DNA of 64,000 nucleotides, taken from assembly GCA_964492715.1 (NCBI GenBank), contig CAZBLK010000009.1, positions 27,653-91,652 of the forward strand. The letters run 5' to 3'. The stretch is from an uncultured Defluviitaleaceae bacterium. GTDB taxonomy: Bacteria > Bacillota > Clostridia > Lachnospirales > WRBF01. This document shows, piece after piece, positions 6,001 through 12,000 of the stretch. Position numbers: made by a program. Each line of letters opens with the position of its first letter. Positions within the stretch are counted from its first letter, which is position 1.

Positions 6001-9000
6001 ATGCCAACCCTGGCGACGCAACCGCAGAAGCTAAGTTTAAAGAAGTAAGCGAAGCTTACGATGTTCTTTCCGACAGCCAAAAACGTGCTAAGTACGACCA
6101 GTTTGGGCACGCAGCTTTTGACCAAACGGCTGGTGGCGGTGGTTACGGCGGCGGCTTCGGTGGTTTTGGCGGCTTTGGTGACATGGGAGACATTTTTGAA
6201 AGCATGTTCGGAAGCGACATTTTTGGCGGTGGTAGCAGGCGCAAAAACGGCCCAAGACGTGGTTCTGACATACATACTTCCATGCAGGTTTCGTTTGAGG
6301 AAGCTTTTTTTGGTGTAGAGCGTGAAATTCAGCTTCCGATGGAAGAAGTGTGCGACACATGTAAGGGCAGCGGTGCAAAGCCTGGTACTTATGCTGAAAA
6401 TTGCCGTCAATGCGGCGGCTCTGGGCAGGAGCGTTTCCAACAGCAAACAATTCTTGGCACAATGACAAGCGTTCGCACATGTAGCGTGTGCGGCGGCGAA
6501 GGAAAAATTATTAAAGAGCCGTGCGGTAGCTGCCGTGGAAGCGGACGTGTTAAGAAAACGAAAACCCTTAAAGTTAACATTCCAAAAGGTATTGAAAGCG
6601 GACAAAGCATTAGGCTTTCTGGCAGGGGAGAGCCTGGGCATAAGGGCGGCCCTACAGGGGATTTATTAATTACAGTAAATGTTTCACAGCATAAGCTTTT
6701 TACAAGGCAAGGAAACAATCTTCACATAGAAGTTCCAATTACGTTTGTGCAGGCGGCTTTGGGTAGTGACATTACAATTCCTACAATGGAAGAAACAGAA
6801 AGCTACACAGTTAAAGCTGGAACACAAACAGGAACTGTAATTAACTTTAAAGGGCGTGGCGTGCCGAATGTTAGAAACAGCAGAAACGTTGGCGACTTAA
6901 TTGTTACGCTTAAAGTTACTGTACCTACTTCTCTTTCTGACAGGCAAAAGCAGCTTTTAAAAGAGTTTGCCGAGGACATGGGTGAGGAATATAAAGACCA
7001 TAAAAAAGGTTTTTTTGATAAATTAAAGGATTCGTTTAAATAAAAGAATAAAATGAATGATAAAAGCTTCCCTAAGAAATTGGGGAGGTTTTTTCTTGTT
7101 GTTTTATGTTATAATATGTCATAGAAATTCTAATTTTAGTGACATTACTTAAACCTAGGAGGTTAAAATGAAGAACAAACTAAGTATTATAACAATTTCA
7201 GCTATTCTTTTAAGCTTGCTTGCAGTGATTTTCATGCGAAGTGAAAGCGAGTTAGAAAAAAATTTAAAGCTGTTAAAAGATGGGAACACAAAGCCACTTA
7301 CTGGGTTTGCACTAGGCGACAAATTTGACAGTGAGCTTGCTTATGAAACAGATGAATATTTTTCTGGTGGGCAGATTAGTAAATTAAAAAGCGGTAAATA
7401 CATTGACACATATTTAATTTTTGATGAAGCTAAGCAACTAAAAGCATTAGGTGCTGAAACAACCGGAAACTTTTTAGGAATTGCTTTGGGGGAAACTACA
7501 TTTCAAAATGTAAAGGATATTTTAGGTTCTCCTGACGTGTATGAGGAAAAGAGTGACATGTATGACTTACCTTTTGCTTTATATAACTTTGAAAAAAACA
7601 CTTTGTATATGCACATGGATAACGAGGACAGGGTATGGCAAATTTTATATAAAACAAAAGAGTAGGTAGGGCATGTATAAGTTTTATATTGTATAAACTG
7701 TAATAGACTTGGCAAATAAGCAAAATCTATTTTAGCACTTTGACTAATTTTGCGAATTAATTGTGTCAAAACTATAACATTTTCTTGACTAAAAGACCAG
7801 ATAATGATATAGTTAGTTAAATATCAATCAATCACAGGAGGGATTTTATGAAACGCTTATTTAACACTTCTCGTGTTATGGCACTTGCACTTTCGCTTGC
7901 AGTTGTTTCACCACTAGCGGCATATGCAGGAACAAGCTCTAATCAATTTAAAATTGCTGCTACAACTTACAAGGCAGGTACATATTCTGCTACAGCAAAG
8001 GGCTATGGCGGCGACGTTTCAGTTGAAGTTACAGTTGATTCAAACGGAAAGATTACAGCTGTAAAGGCTACAGGCAAAGATGAAACAACAGGTATTGGTT
8101 CAAACGCAATTGACAAGCTTCCTGCTGCTTTTGTAAAGGCTGGCGGCACAAAGGTTGACGTAGTTTCTGGTGCTACTGTTACATCAAAGGCTCTTATAAA
8201 CGCAGTTGGTGCAGCTGTTAAAAAGGCTGTAGTTGTAGCTGCCCCTGCCGCTACTCCAAAGCCTGCTGCTACTCCAGCCCCAACACCTGCTCCAACTCCT
8301 GAACCTGAACCAGAAGAAACATTTAAGTTAATTGAAGATGATTATGTAATTACATATGCTGACTTTGCAAAGGAAGTTAGCTCTTGGAAAACCAAGCTTG
8401 AAAAAGGCGATGCTTACAAGCTTGCAAAAGGCACTTGGGCTTCACAAATGGAAGTTTTCCAAGAAAAGCTTTACAAGGGCAAAACTGTTGCCGAGCTTAA
8501 AGCTTGGTTTGGCAAGTACACAGCTTCAAACGGCAGGCCTTTAACAGCTTCTGCTACTGGTGACAACAAAACTAAGTATGACGCTTTAGGCGCAGCTGAC
8601 AAAGCTATGCTCGCTGACTTAACTTCAGCAGCTACAATGAGCCTTAACGACTCACACGGAAACCTTTTAGGTGCAGTTGAAAAGGCATACGAAACAAAGA
8701 GAAATGTAAACGGAAACAAAGCTGCATACATTGGTTTTGGAATTAACACTGTTCCTAGAGACAGAGGAAGCTATGCACAATTTAACACTACTGTAGCCGC
8801 TGTTTTATTTGATGAACAAGATAGAATTGTTGACGTAATTGTTGACGTTGTTGAAGTAAGTACAAACGAAACAAACTGGCCAGGCTGGCCAAGCGAAACT
8901 GTTACAGTTGACGCTTCTGAAAAAGCTTTTAACAGTATTAAGTCAAAGCGTGACCGTGGCGACGCTTACAACATGGCAAGAGCAGCTACAACTAAAAATG

Positions 9001-12000
9001 AATGGTATGTTCAAATGAACAACTTTGAAAAGTTTTTCGTTGGTATGACTGCTCCAGAAGTAAAAGCTTGGTATGAAAAGTACACTGGTCAAACAGGCAA
9101 ACCTCTTACAAAGTCTGTTACAAATGAATATGACATTGCTAAATGGTCTTCATTAACTTATTTTGAAAGAGAAAGAATTGAAGACGTTACATCTTCTGCA
9201 ACTATGAGCCTTAACGATGCACACAGCGACATTGTAGGCGCAATTGTTGAAGCTTACAACAACAAAAAGGCTGTTTCTGGCGAAGTTGCTTCTTTTGGTA
9301 TTGGGTACAACAACGTGTTTAGAAAAGGCCCAGGTAAAAGCGAAGACGGAACTCCTGTTTACAGCTTTAACGAATCATACGCAGCTGTTGCTTTTGACAA
9401 AGATGGCAAAGTTGTAAAAAGCATAACAGACGTTCTTGAAGTTGCTACACCAAACTATGACGGTGCTGCTATGCCTCACATTTCAGGCTTGCCTGGTCAA
9501 AACAGGTACGTTACTGATGTTACTCATAAGGGCGAAGTTTATTTAGTGCCTGCTAAAAAGTAGTTTAAACTTTTAATTAATTTTAGGTGTTTCTCAGTTT
9601 GTTTTGAGAAATACCTTTTTTTCTAAAAAAATTTATAAATATACAAATTAGTCTTTTTAATTTCTAAATTTAGGTATATAATATAAATAAACATATATAC
9701 AGCAATGATAAAAGCTACGGTTTATAATTTTCTACAGAGAGCTGGTGGGTGGTGCGAACCAGTGAAATGTTAAGCCTTTCCACTTTTGGAGCTGTAACCC
9801 CTTTTTTGAGTGGCTGGCTTTGCCAGCAATTTGGGTGGCACCACGGAACTTTCCGTCCCATGTTTTTTGTGGGCTTGGGGAGTTTTTATTTTTGATTTTT
9901 AGGAGGATAAAATGTTAGACATTAAGTTTGTGCGTTCAAACCCTGAAATTGTGAAGGAAAATATTAAAAAGAAGTTTCAAGACAAAAAGCTTGTTTTAGT
10001 AGACGAAGCAATTGCATTGGACGAAACGTTTAGAGAAATGAAAGCTCGTTGCGATTTTCTTAGAAGCCAAAGGAACGTAATAAGCAAGGAAATTGGTGGC
10101 TTTATGGCAAAGGGTGAAAAGGACAAGGCAGAGGAAGCAAAAGCAAAGGTTGCAGAAATTGCAAAAGAGCTTGCTGGGCTTGAAGGCAAGGAAGAAGAAA
10201 CTTCTGCCAAATTGAAAGAAATTATGCTTGTTATTCCAAACATTATCGACCCATCTGTGCCAATTGGCAAAGACGACAGCGAAAATGTAGAGGTTGAGCG
10301 TTTTGGTGAGCCTGTAGTTCCAAGCTTTGAAGTGCCGTACCATGTTGAAATAATGGAAAAGCTTAAAGGCATAGACTTGGACAGTGCAAGAAAAACAAGC
10401 GGCAACGGTTTTTATTATCTTCTTGGGGACGTTGCACGTTTACATTCAGCTATTCTTTCATACGCTCGTGATTTTATGATTGACAAAGGGTTTGTTTACT
10501 GCATACCACCTTACATGATTCGCAGCAACGTTGTTACAGGTGTAATGAGCTTTGCCGAAATGGAAAACATGATGTACAAAGTTGAAGGCGAAGATTTATA
10601 CTTAATTGGGACAAGCGAACACTCCATGATTGGAAAGTTTATCGACACAATACTTGACGAAGAACAGCTTCCGCAAGCTTTAACAAGCTACTCTGCTTGC
10701 TTCCGCAAAGAGGTTGGGGCGCATGGCATTGAAGAACGTGGCGTTTACCGTGTTCATCAGTTTGAAAAGCAAGAAATGATTGTTGTTTGCAAGCCAGAAG
10801 ACAGCCCAAGATGGTTTGAAAAAATGTGCAAAAACTCTGTAGAGTTTTTCCGCTCGCTTGACATTCCTGTGCGCACTTTAGAGTGCTGCTCTGGCGATTT
10901 GGCAGACCTTAAAGTTAAAAGCATTGACGTTGAAGCATGGTCGCCAAGGCAGCAAAAATATTTTGAAGTTGGAAGCTGCTCAAATTTAGGCGATGCACAA
11001 GCACGCCGCCTTGGAATTCGCATAAGAAACAGGGAAGCTGGCAACTATTATGCACACACTTTAAACAACACAGTTGTTGCTCCTCCAAGAATGTTGATTT
11101 CGTTTTTGGAAAACAACTTGAACGAAGACGGCTCGGTTAGAATTCCAGAACCTCTTAGAATGTATATGGGCGGTAAAGATTGTATAAAGTAAATTGCAAA
11201 TTAGGTTTGTAATTTTTATAATTCATGATATAATAAAATTAAATTCAGAAACAAGAGGGACAGAACATGATTAGACTAAACTTTGCAACTACCACCACCA
11301 CTACTTAGGGCTACTTTGAGCTATGTTGTTTAAGCAACCAGCGACAAAGGCAAGCCCTATTAGTCGTGTGGTTGCAAGGTATATACAACACCTTGCGTCA
11401 CTTATAAAAGTGTGCAAGGTGTTTTTGTTTTTGAAAGGGGGTGTTTGCTCCGATGTCTAAAGGAATGTTTGAACAATGTTCTAAGGGGCGGCTCACCGTA
11501 TTTTCTTCATTTGAAAACTAACTAAAATGAAGGAGATACGACTATGGAAAACTACAAAAAACTATTGGCAGAAAAGCTTTTGGTTGCAGTAAAACAGTCT
11601 TATATAAATGCTGAGCTTATATATTTTGAGGAAAGCGAAAGCGGTTTTTTCTGTGACTACAACATGCCGCTGCTTAACCCAACATTGATTGCAGAAATAT
11701 CAAAAAGCATTGATACAAGTGGAATACAATGTGCTTATGAATTACAAGGTTTTTCCAGCGTTTATGAGGACGGCAATGCAGAAAACCGTGTACTACAACG
11801 CATTTATGTAACAGCTTTTCAAACAACTGCTGAACTTGAAGCGTATAAAAGCTTTGTTTCCGAAGCGTTAAAGCGTGACCACAAAACACTCGGCAGTGAA
11901 TTAAAGCTATTTTCAAGCTCTAACGAAATAGGGCAGGGGTTGAATTTGTGGCACCCAAAAGGTGCAATGATGCGTTACCTGGTTGAAAGCTTTGGGCAAA

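What the first reader, a model, noticed from the sequence alone, without database searches (positions are those of the whole stretch)
7848..9563. Secreted flavinylation-type FMN-binding protein carrying a tandem duplication of an unassigned domain with an ATMSLND(S/A)H motif
- The N-terminal domain has the DxxSGAT motif (DVVSGATVTS), the target of ApbE-type covalent FMN attachment in extracytosolic electron-transfer proteins.
- After a Pro/Ala/Thr linker come two ~165-aa repeats (nt ~8379-8861 and ~8931-9446).
- Both repeats share GDAY…, …E(L/V)KAW(F/Y).KYT…G(R/K)PLT…, …(T/S)SAATMSLND(S/A)H…G(A)(V/I)…AY… and …(A/S).(I/F)G.G.N…V(L/F)D…(V/I)….
- I cannot assign this repeat to a known family.
- No apbE, ndh2, eetA/B or menaquinone genes are adjacent.
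- The repeat could be a novel cofactor- or substrate-binding module of an extracellular redox protein.
Basis: partly seen in the sequence, partly recalled or inferred. Interest (0 to 1): 0.55.

Follow-up and report, generated by a model that had tools for sequence, protein, structure and literature searches.

The report
Circularly permuted three-flavin secreted redox protein
The "unassigned" repeat is a much-expanded version of the same FMN-binding domain found at the protein's N-terminus, with its own flavin-attachment motif, so this is probably a secreted three-flavin electron-transfer protein; what sets it apart is that its two-domain module is threaded in a circularly shifted order seen in no other member of the family.

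Summary
ORF 7848..9563 (571 aa) has a signal peptide, a Pfam FMN_bind domain (DVVSGAT, T110), a Pro/Ala/Thr linker and a real internal duplication (40% identity, E=1e-37). No curated library assigns the repeats.

The repeat is not a new kind of module. "ATMSLND" is the tail of a second and third ApbE-type motif (D257-LTSAA-T263, D446-VTSSA-T452). Across 208 unique family units D and T are invariant and A 99.5%, and a third read S/T-G-A-T.

The family (at least 363 species genomes, mostly anaerobic Bacillota) has a ~215-aa unit: three β-strands, a large helical insert, then motif and helix. That is FMN_bind order with insertions. Support:
- Spliced units hit Pfam FMN_bind.
- Natural short-insert relatives link the long unit (99.4%) to FMN_bind above its cutoff.

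Fold searches gave no significant PDB match.

All canonical members have exactly two units in β→helix order. Ours alone runs [helix-motif][β-helix-motif][β]; the split unit keeps 55/60 invariant residues, the contiguous one 35/60.

The gene is monocistronic, with no ApbE or electron-transfer genes in the window. The closest published description is "FMN-bind2" (Huang et al. 2024). Verdict: new variant of a known kind. Flavinylation and the electron acceptor are untested.

The parts
7785..7813 (+). Promoter-like site TTGACT-17-TATAGT with TG extended -10. An AGGAGG ribosome-binding site follows at about 7837-7842.
   Evidence: Consensus scan, 10 of 12 matches; sequence read directly. No riboswitch or other Rfam element lies upstream.
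7848..7928 (+). Signal peptide, aa 1-27 (MKRLFNTSRVMALALSLAVVSPLAAYA|G). SPase-I type with no lipobox Cys.
   Evidence: Read from the translation. About 73 of 120 homologues have a lipobox; the others have AxA-type signal peptides or an N-terminal membrane anchor.
8001..8222 (+). FMN_bind1 domain (aa 52-125) with the canonical flavinylation motif D104-VVSGA-T110 (T110 codon at 8175-8177).
   Evidence: Pfam PF04205, 56.9 bits against a cutoff of 22. RnfG-type NCBIfam hits. PDB 8p2b at E=4e-9.
8229..8327 (+). Pro/Ala/Thr/Glu-rich flexible linker (aa 128-160).
   Evidence: Sequence composition.
8328..8714 (+). H-S(a): the helical insert plus motif and helix of the split unit A (aa 161-289). Contains D257-LTSAA-T263 followed by MSLNDSHG (motif at nt 8616-8636).
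   Evidence: Matches family-unit HMM positions 86-215 only. AlphaFold gives six helices, a motif loop and a helix at pLDDT about 90-98. Together with aa 478-571 it keeps 55 of 60 family-invariant residues.
8715..9290 (+). Unit B (aa 290-481), the only unit in canonical order: β1-β3, a shortened loop, helical insert, then D446-VTSSA-T452 followed by MSLNDAHS and a helix (motif at nt 9183-9203).
   Evidence: Unit HMM matches. Folds alone at pLDDT 83.2, pTM 0.82, as three strands then seven helices. Keeps only 35 of 60 invariant residues; it has lost the GPG.D and PNYDG..MPH..PGQ loops.
9291..9560 (+). β(c)+loop: the displaced β1-β3 sheet and conserved ATPNYDGAAMPHISGLPGQ..Y..D..H loop of unit A (aa 482-571). 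The chain ends where canonical units enter the helical insert.
   Evidence: Matches unit HMM positions 4-87 only. The β strands reach pLDDT above 90 despite having no alignment coverage. The invariant loop residues are retained.
9585..9616 (+). Intrinsic-terminator-like hairpin followed by a T-run, directly after the stop codon (9561-9563).
   Evidence: Terminator scan: 13-pair stem then TTTTTTT; sequence read directly.

Best explanation
The protein is a secreted multi-flavin electron-transfer protein. It has one ordinary FMN_bind domain joined by a flexible linker to a two-domain module, and each domain of that module is an expanded FMN_bind derivative: three long β-strands, a ~100-130-residue helical insert, then D-x-x-S-[G/S/A]-A-T and a helix.

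Inferred, not shown:
- An ApbE flavin transferase encoded elsewhere in the genome attaches FMN to T110, T263 and T452.
- The N-terminal domain takes electrons from a membrane donor and passes them to the paired flavins of the C-terminal module, which pass them on to an unidentified extracellular acceptor.

Shown by sequence:
- In this organism the two-domain module is circularly permuted. The β-sheet and loop of one unit sit at the extreme C-terminus, and its helical/motif half sits right after the linker.
- The pieces still add up to two β parts and two helix-motif parts.

Inferred from the AlphaFold confidence and from residue conservation, without access to coordinates: the N- and C-terminal pieces come together to form one domain.
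For: Motif
- Both repeats carry D-x-x-S-[A/S]-A-T.
- In 208 unique family units D is 100%, A 99.5%, T 100%; position 4 is S/T/A; position 5 is G 34%, S 33%, A 22%. Many homologues read DVVSGAT or DVVTGAT.
- The ApbE motif is D-x-x-[S/T]-G-A-[S/T]. A G-to-A substitution still gave about 50% flavinylation in the Klebsiella fumarate reductase test case (PMC12052999).

Homology to FMN_bind
- With the insert spliced out, the unit profile aligns collinearly over 75 columns to the family's FMN_bind1 profile (P=0.002). 34 of 238 spliced units score above 10 bits, against 0 of 230 shuffles.
- 9 of 30 evenly sampled spliced units hit Pfam FMN_bind as the top family, best E=3.7e-5.
- Natural ~160-aa-unit relatives align to the long unit at 99.4% probability, E=2e-21. 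One of them, P0281, hits Pfam FMN_bind end to end at 22.7 bits against a cutoff of 22.
- P0173, which lacks FMN_bind1 and has two intermediate units with SGATMSVNDAHSD, reaches 25.1 bits.

Secondary structure
- AlphaFold gives β1-β2-β3, helices, motif loop, helix in each unit: pLDDT 83.8 and pTM 0.84 for aa 162-571; 83.2 and 0.82 for aa 289-481.

Architecture
- F-U-U 145, F-F-U-U 21, U-U 15, F-F-F-U-U 2. Every complete protein except ours has exactly two units. The same canonical order holds across 50%-identity representatives.
- In L005 the FMN_bind1 domain is a separate ORF just upstream of the two-unit gene.

Permutation
- Ours matches unit HMM positions 86-215, then about 29-215, then 4-87.
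- The split unit keeps 55 of 60 invariant residues, the contiguous unit 35 of 60.
- The identical protein occurs on 3 contigs.

Location
- All family members have a signal peptide, lipobox or membrane anchor.
- ApbE is present within 10 kb in 3 of 80 loci.

Precedent
- FMN-bind2 pairs and circularly permuted multi-FMN-bind proteins are described in PMC11334425.
Against: - Neither of our own repeats hits Pfam FMN_bind, even at E<=1.
- hhalign probabilities for unit against FMN_bind1 are low: 11-13%, pairwise P about 0.002. A PDB sequence-profile search finds nothing.
- The Gly of the ApbE motif is Ala or Ser in our two repeats, which may lower or abolish flavinylation.
- There is no ApbE or membrane electron-donor gene in the 64-kb window and no conserved neighbour in 80 loci, so nothing in the genomic context points to a pathway.
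- No flavin attachment, redox activity or acceptor has been measured for any member of this family, as far as the searched literature shows.
Confidence: 0.62

Rival explanations
1. The repeats descend from FMN_bind but are no longer flavinylated. In this reading they act as structural, dimerisation or ligand-binding modules attached to a single-flavin FMN_bind domain, and the conserved Thr and Asp serve another role.
For: - The motif Gly is replaced by Ala or Ser in our protein and in about two thirds of family units.
- The short-unit relatives even replace the motif Ala with Val or Cys.
- The Pfam model does not recognise our repeats.
- ApbE is rarely nearby: 3 of 80 loci.
Against: - D, A and T of the motif are invariant or nearly so across 208 units, and a third of units are canonical S/T-G-A-T. 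That is hard to explain if the Thr were not the modified residue.
- A G-to-A substitution still allowed about 50% flavinylation in a tested substrate.
- U-U-only proteins, which have no FMN_bind1 at all, exist in 15 of 186 members. They would have no cofactor under this reading.
Confidence: 0.15
2. The two-unit module is a catalytic extracytosolic flavoenzyme rather than a passive electron relay, for example a metal (Fe(III) or Cu(II)) reductase or a small-molecule reductase. The large helical insert and the His/Asp/Met/Tyr/Trp/Arg-rich invariant loops would build a substrate or metal site next to the covalent FMN.
For: - The long-unit family has many invariant polar and aromatic residues outside the FMN_bind core: W.TKR.RG..Y, W..QM, NGRPL, PNYDG..MP(H)..G.PGQ..Y..D..HD, and D.HG just after the motif Thr. 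This is far more than a simple relay domain would need.
- The layout, an N-terminal FMN_bind1 relay followed by a C-terminal module, parallels extracytosolic fumarate and urocanate reductases (PMC8238504).
- One homologue sits beside ZIP and FeoAB genes.
- Flavinylated proteins are repeatedly linked to iron assimilation.
Against: - There is no conserved genomic association with transporters or any other gene. The Feo/ZIP case is a single locus.
- Our own unit B has lost most of the candidate metal-loop residues.
- There is no structural match to any enzyme.
- The metal-site idea rests on sequence inspection only.
Confidence: 0.18
3. The repeat is an unrelated, new fold that only converged on a D..S.AT-like sequence, as the first reader proposed (a new cofactor- or substrate-binding module).
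For: - Foldseek finds no significant PDB match for either model.
- There are no Pfam, NCBIfam or PDB sequence hits for the repeats themselves.
Against: - The match to FMN_bind is collinear and extends well beyond the motif, covering β2, β3, the E-x-(T/A)-P turn and both helices.
- Natural bridging sequences reach the curated Pfam cutoff and are clearly homologous to the long unit.
- The order of secondary-structure elements is the same.
Confidence: 0.05

Closest known systems
FMN-bind2 subtype of the FMN-binding domain (Huang, Meheust, Barquera & Light 2024, mSystems, PMC11334425; example NTW96865.1 from an Erysipelotrichaceae bacterium)
   Same: - An expanded FMN_bind domain with insertions between β1/β2 and between β3 and α1.
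- Found in even numbers, and predicted to pair into a pseudo-symmetric two-flavin unit.
- Identified by BLAST rather than Pfam, with no InterPro ID listed.
- Our family always has exactly two units, has insertions at the same places, and includes Erysipelotrichaceae members.
   Different: - The published size is about 160 aa. Our family's unit is about 215 aa (about 190 in our unit B), with two further insertions. The ~160-aa relatives found here (P0245-P0281) fit the published size better.
- The published description is model-based; I found no biochemistry on this subtype.
Pfam FMN_bind (PF04205) / FMN-bind1: NqrC, RnfG, PplA-type domains; solved examples 3O6U, 8P2A, 8P2B
   Same: - The N-terminal domain of our protein is a bona fide member.
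- The repeats share the β1-β2-β3, α, D-x-x-S-x-A-T, α order, and the motif's Asp, Ala and Thr.
   Different: - The repeats carry a ~100-130-aa helical insert and longer β-strands.
- They are not recognised by the Pfam model.
- They gave no significant Foldseek match to FMN_bind structures.
Circularly permuted multi-FMN-bind1 proteins (Huang et al. 2024, Fig. 3B)
   Same: A piece of the first flavin domain is displaced to the protein's C-terminus, so that the N- and C-terminal segments are predicted to assemble into one domain.
   Different: - There it is the C-terminal helix of an FMN-bind1 domain that moves. Here it is the whole β-sheet plus loop of a long FMN-bind2-like unit.
- Ours is a single lineage inside an otherwise uniformly canonical family.
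Multi-flavinylated proteins, and PplA of the Listeria extracellular electron-transfer system (PMC8238504, PMC10339131)
   Same: Extracytosolic proteins of Gram-positive bacteria with several ApbE-type sites, proposed to relay electrons beyond the membrane.
   Different: - Those are built from FMN-bind1 beads on a string and are often encoded with ApbE/FmnB, Ndh2, EetA/B or reductases.
- Our gene is monocistronic among housekeeping genes and has no conserved neighbours.

Membership tests
Pfam FMN_bind (PF04205), N-terminal domain | Match to the family HMM above the curated gathering score | tested here: met
   56.9 bits against a cutoff of 22, aa 52-125, model positions 1-77 of 77.
Pfam FMN_bind (PF04205), N-terminal domain | ApbE motif D-x-x-[S/T]-G-A-[S/T] | tested here: met
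   D104-V-V-S-G-A-T110. Motif definition taken from PMC12052999.
ApbE-flavinylated extracytosolic protein | Export signal placing the domain outside the cytosol | tested here: met
   N-terminal signal peptide with AYA|G, read from the sequence. All homologues have a lipobox, signal peptide or membrane anchor. No dedicated predictor was run.
ApbE-flavinylated extracytosolic protein | Covalent FMN on the motif Thr, and an ApbE gene in the genome | not testable with these tools
   Needs biochemistry and the whole genome. No ApbE in the 64-kb window. ApbE is confirmed near the gene in 3 of 80 related loci.
FMN_bind-derived domain (the repeats) | Match of our own repeats to the Pfam FMN_bind HMM | tested here: not met
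   No FMN_bind hit for aa 178-338 or 362-533 at E<=1.
FMN_bind-derived domain (the repeats) | Homology to FMN_bind demonstrable through profiles or intermediates | tested here: met
   - Spliced units: Pfam FMN_bind is the top family in 9 of 30, best E=3.7e-5.
- Long unit against short unit: 99.4% probability.
- Short-unit P0281 and intermediate P0173 reach the Pfam cutoff.
- The direct profile-profile signal is weak, P about 0.002.
FMN_bind-derived domain (the repeats) | Flavinylation motif D-x-x-[S/T]-G-A-[S/T] | tested here: inconclusive
   Ours has DLTSAAT and DVTSSAT: D, S, A and T match, but G is replaced by A or S. Across the family D and T are 100%, A 99.5%, G only 34%. A G-to-A substitution is tolerated at about 50% in one tested substrate.
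FMN_bind-derived domain (the repeats) | Structural superposition on solved FMN_bind domains | tested here: not met
FMN-bind2 (Huang et al. 2024) | Insertions between β1/β2 and between β3/α1 relative to FMN-bind1 | tested here: met
   The alignments place the GPG.D loop between β1 and β2, and the large insert between β3 and the pre-motif helix.
FMN-bind2 (Huang et al. 2024) | Even number of domains per protein | tested here: met
   Exactly two units in 183 of 183 canonical members. Our protein has two β parts and two H-S parts.
FMN-bind2 (Huang et al. 2024) | Domain size of about 160 aa; sequence relationship to the reference NTW96865.1 | not testable with these tools
   The reference sequence is not retrievable here. 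Our unit is about 190-215 aa; the related short-unit proteins are about 160 aa.
FMN-bind2 (Huang et al. 2024) | β-sheet faces of the two domains pack into a pseudo-symmetric pair | not testable with these tools
   Model coordinates cannot be inspected. Only pTM 0.84 for the two-unit model is available.
Listeria-type flavin-based extracellular electron transfer locus (PplA with FmnB/ApbE, Ndh2, EetA/B, DmkA/B) | Gene clustered with the transferase and the membrane electron-transfer genes | tested here: not met
   The neighbours are hrcA-grpE-dnaK-dnaJ, a 165-aa unknown ORF, serS, another class II aminoacyl-tRNA synthetase, rpsL/rpsG and elongation-factor-sized ORFs. No conserved neighbour in 80 loci.

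The most novel reading that the evidence does not exclude
The long-insert two-unit module is not just a flavin wire. It may be a previously unrecognised class of extracytosolic flavoenzyme in which the helical insert and the invariant His/Asp/Met/Tyr/Trp/Arg loops form a substrate or metal site beside each covalent FMN, for example an assimilatory metal reductase of anaerobic Bacillota. On this reading our protein shows that the module tolerates circular permutation with one catalytic unit intact (55 of 60 invariant residues) and one degenerate unit (35 of 60), like a pseudo-dimer with a single active site.
Probability: 0.18. Interest if true: 0.7.

Novelty: new variant of a known kind. Interest (0 to 1): 0.42.

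Why it matters
- Surveys of flavinylated proteins that count Pfam FMN_bind domains score this family, present in hundreds of anaerobic Bacillota species including gut and digester organisms, as single-flavin or (for U-U-only members) as non-flavoproteins. If the repeats are flavinylated, these are two- to five-flavin proteins, and the census of multi-flavin extracytosolic proteins is an undercount.
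- The series of short, intermediate and long units shows how a small relay domain can grow large insertions.
- The permuted member is a natural experiment on how the paired module is threaded. One unit is conserved and one is decaying, which points to the half that carries the function.
- None of this changes the basic picture of ApbE-dependent electron transfer, and the acceptor remains unknown.

Tried and rejected
- Foldseek of the two-unit model and of the single-unit model against the PDB gave only insignificant, scattered hits: double-hotdog dehydratases, ISCU, enolase-superfamily proteins. These were rejected as shape noise.
- PDB sequence searches with the whole protein, the spliced-unit profile, the U-U profile and short-unit P0281 found nothing beyond the N-terminal domain.
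- Direct hhalign of the unspliced unit against FMN_bind1 gave only weak local matches.
- Covering the whole permuted query with homologues in one MAFFT alignment is impossible, because every row falls into one register. I prepared register-B segments but did not use them, since a progressive alignment would re-register them.
- Neighbourhood clustering of 80 loci found no conserved partner. The apparent clusters were generic ABC ATPases and response regulators, plus an antisense ORF artefact.
- U1-versus-U2 HMM assignment of our pieces gave differences of only a few bits (H-S pieces slightly U1-like, C-terminal β slightly U2-like). That is too weak to reconstruct the rearrangement history.
- Looking up accession numbers and source names to identify the published FMN-bind2 example gave nothing.
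- Rfam found no regulatory RNA upstream of the gene.
- An EF-hand or dockerin-like Ca2+ loop in the canonical insert was considered. Only Y..D..HD is invariant, so it stays a speculation.

Full report

Yes. The ORF runs from 7848 to 9563 on the + strand and encodes 571 aa.
- Pfam FMN_bind covers aa 52-125 at 56.9 bits against a cutoff of 22.
- NCBIfam gives sub-threshold RnfG-type hits.
- The best solved relative by sequence is the flavinylated domain 8p2b (E=4e-9).
- The canonical ApbE motif DVVSGAT ends at T110.
- A Pro/Ala/Thr linker follows.
- Neither repeat hits Pfam.

The gene has its own promoter-like site, an AGGAGG ribosome-binding site, and a hairpin with a T-run right after the stop. 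Its neighbours are hrcA-grpE-dnaK-dnaJ, a 165-aa unknown ORF, serS with a T-box leader, and translation genes. The ORFs scanned across the 64-kb window hold no ApbE, Rnf/Nqr, NDH-2 or quinone genes.

**2. What the repeat is**

A search with the repeat region alone found at least 964 relatives. The reference-genome scan found 363 species genomes. Almost all are anaerobic Bacillota (Proteiniclasticum, Gudongella, Sedimentibacter, Christensenella, Oscillospiraceae, Lachnospiraceae, Erysipelotrichaceae), plus a few Treponemataceae MAGs. An exhaustive profile search of 1.84 billion representatives gave 359 clusters at E<=1e-3 and 74 at E<=1e-30. Public sources call these proteins only 'FMN-binding protein' or 'hypothetical'.

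The family's unit is about 215 aa and has three parts:
- a β part: GFG...R.GPG.D....VYSFN.V.A.VLFD..GKI....VD.LEVATPNYDG..MPH.SG.PGQ..Y..D..HD
- a helical part: W.TKR.RG..Y....W..QM..F...F.GKT..E.E.WF.KYTSD.NGRPL...K...L
- the segment D-V-T-S-G-A-T-M-S-L-x-D-x-H-G followed by a helix

A third of units read S/T-G-A-T exactly. This is the ApbE recognition motif D-x-x-[S/T]-G-A-[S/T], with FMN attached to the last residue. Replacing the Gly with Ala still allowed about 50% flavinylation in the tested Klebsiella fumarate reductase (PMC12052999). Our copies are D257-LTSAA-T263 and D446-VTSSA-T452.

**3. Relationship to FMN_bind**

AlphaFold models are confident: aa 162-571 gives pLDDT 83.8 and pTM 0.84; aa 289-481 gives pLDDT 83.2 and pTM 0.82. 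Each unit shows three long β-strands, then six helices, then the motif loop, then a helix. That is the β1-β2-β3 / α / SGAT / α order of FMN_bind with a large insert between β3 and the pre-motif helix.

Sequence tests:
- The unspliced unit gives only weak local hhalign matches to the family's own FMN_bind1 profile.
- With the insert spliced out, the alignment becomes collinear over 75 columns (P=0.002). Spliced units beat shuffled controls: 34 of 238 exceed 10 bits, against 0 of 230.
- 9 of 30 evenly sampled spliced units hit curated Pfam FMN_bind as the top family, best E=3.7e-5, model positions 10-66.
- Natural bridges exist. Lipoproteins of about 320-360 aa, made of two ~160-aa units, align to the long unit at 99.4% probability, E=2e-21, over 152 columns. 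One of them, P0281, matches Pfam FMN_bind end to end at 22.7 bits against a cutoff of 22.
- P0173 has two intermediate units, no FMN_bind1, and the motif EAISGATMSVNDAHSD. It reaches 25.1 bits. Three other FMN_bind1-less members have FMN_bind among their best hits at E 0.0025-0.044.

**4. Architecture and the permutation**

Among 120 database proteins and the ORFs of the 80 genome loci, the architectures are F-U-U (145), F-F-U-U (21), U-U (15) and F-F-F-U-U (2). There are two contig-end truncations, and ours. Every complete protein except ours has exactly two units, always in β then helix-motif order. The same holds across the 50%-identity representatives, which add one U-U-F variant and a continuum of insert lengths. 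In one locus the FMN_bind1 domain is a separate 92-aa ORF just upstream of a U-U gene.

Our protein alone matches unit positions 86-215 (aa 161-289), then a full but eroded unit (aa 290-481), then positions 4-87 (aa 481-564). Placing the C-terminal piece in front of the N-terminal piece reconstitutes a unit that keeps 55 of 60 family-invariant residues. That includes the PNYDG..MPH..G.PGQ..Y..D..H loop in the low-confidence tail. The contiguous middle unit keeps only 35 of 60. The chain break sits exactly at the loop|helix junction.

The C-terminal β-strands reach pLDDT above 90 although no homologue covers them in the alignment. This fits them packing against the orphan helical half, but I could not inspect coordinates. 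The identical protein is on three contigs, so it is not an assembly artefact. The rearrangement history could not be resolved.

**5. How it most likely works**

Shown:
- export signal
- one canonical FMN_bind domain
- two FMN_bind-derived units with conserved motif Asp, Ala and Thr
- a strict two-unit stoichiometry

Inferred:
- ApbE, encoded elsewhere, attaches FMN to T110, T263 and T452.
- The tethered FMN_bind1 shuttles electrons from a membrane donor to the paired flavins, which reduce an extracellular acceptor or partner.

This is the logic proposed for multi-flavinylated proteins and for FMN_bind-reductase fusions (PMC8238504; PMC11334425). Genomic context gives no help. There is no conserved neighbour, ApbE lies within 10 kb in only 3 of 80 loci, and one homologue sits next to ZIP/FeoAB.

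The many invariant polar and aromatic residues in the insert and loops leave room for a catalytic or metal-binding role (rival 2). Loss of flavinylation (rival 1) is made less likely by the invariance of the motif and by U-U-only proteins that would otherwise lack any cofactor.

**6. Comparison with what is known**

The closest description is the 'FMN-bind2' subtype of Huang et al. 2024. It is an expanded FMN-bind domain with insertions at β1/β2 and β3/α1, found in even numbers, predicted to form a pseudo-symmetric two-flavin pair, identified by BLAST, and illustrated with an Erysipelotrichaceae example that has no InterPro ID. The published ~160-aa size fits the short-unit relatives better than our ~215-aa unit, and the reference sequence could not be retrieved, so membership is likely but unproven.

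The same paper reports circularly permuted multi-FMN-bind1 proteins in which a C-terminal helix is displaced. Here a whole β-sheet plus loop of a long unit is displaced, in a single lineage. No paper in the searched library mentions FMN-bind2 beyond that one, and no solved structure is related by sequence.

**7. Verdict**

But the repeat is not a new module. It is a long-insert, FMN-bind2-like derivative of FMN_bind with its own flavinylation-type motif, in a family that is widespread yet effectively unannotated.

The new elements are the long-insert form, the short-to-long series of units, and this protein's unique circular permutation with one conserved and one eroding unit. I rate it a new variant of a known kind, of moderate interest.

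Noticed in passing
window 9696-9863 (+): T-box leader upstream of serS (9912..11192). It scores 88.3 bits, just under Rfam's gathering score of 93 (E=4e-20), so the default-threshold scan of the window did not list it.
   Followed up: yes
window 7168-7665 (+): A 165-aa ORF directly upstream of the finding, with an N-terminal hydrophobic segment and no Pfam hit. It lies in the same position on the independent Logan contigs L001 and L002. Its function is unknown, and no link to the flavoprotein gene was established.
   Followed up: partly
P0245, P0254, P0256, P0263, P0268, P0272, P0276, P0281: Lipoproteins of about 320-360 aa made of two ~160-aa units that are homologous to the long unit. The motif Ala is replaced by Val or Cys (D-x-x-[SA]-[SG]-[VC]-T-[IM]). 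The P0263 cluster has 652 members. Whether ApbE can modify this variant motif is an open question.
   Followed up: partly
L005 9666-9944 and 10001-11287: Gene fission: the FMN_bind1 domain is a separate 92-aa ORF 57 nt upstream of a U-U-only gene (P0023). An unannotated 1151-aa ORF follows.
   Followed up: no
P0156 (718 aa): A family member with the FMN_bind1 domain at the C-terminus (U-U-F) instead of the N-terminus.
   Followed up: no
L003 11794-15877: In Alloiococcus sp. CFN-8 the homologue (P0004) lies next to a ZIP metal transporter and FeoA/FeoB/FeoB-associated genes. This is a single case and is not seen as a conserved pattern in 80 loci.
   Followed up: partly
L075 511-1443, L052 5122-6087, L031 5758-6606: ApbE genes (Pfam E about 1e-67) lie 4-9 kb upstream of the family gene in three Oscillospiraceae/Scatomorpha MAGs. 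No ApbE-like ORF was found within 10 kb in the other 77 loci.
   Followed up: yes
family units; in the window aa 536-560 = nt 9453-9527: Canonical long units have an invariant His/Asp/Met/Tyr-rich loop (PNYDG..MP(H)..G.PGQ..Y..D..HD), plus D.HG right after the motif Thr. This is a possible metal or substrate site. In our protein it survives only in the C-terminal tail copy.
   Followed up: partly
window 36619-39027: An [FeFe]-hydrogenase-large-subunit-like protein with 4Fe-4S domains (446 aa) is followed by small ORFs and a PHP-domain protein. This is consistent with a strictly anaerobic fermentative host.
   Followed up: no
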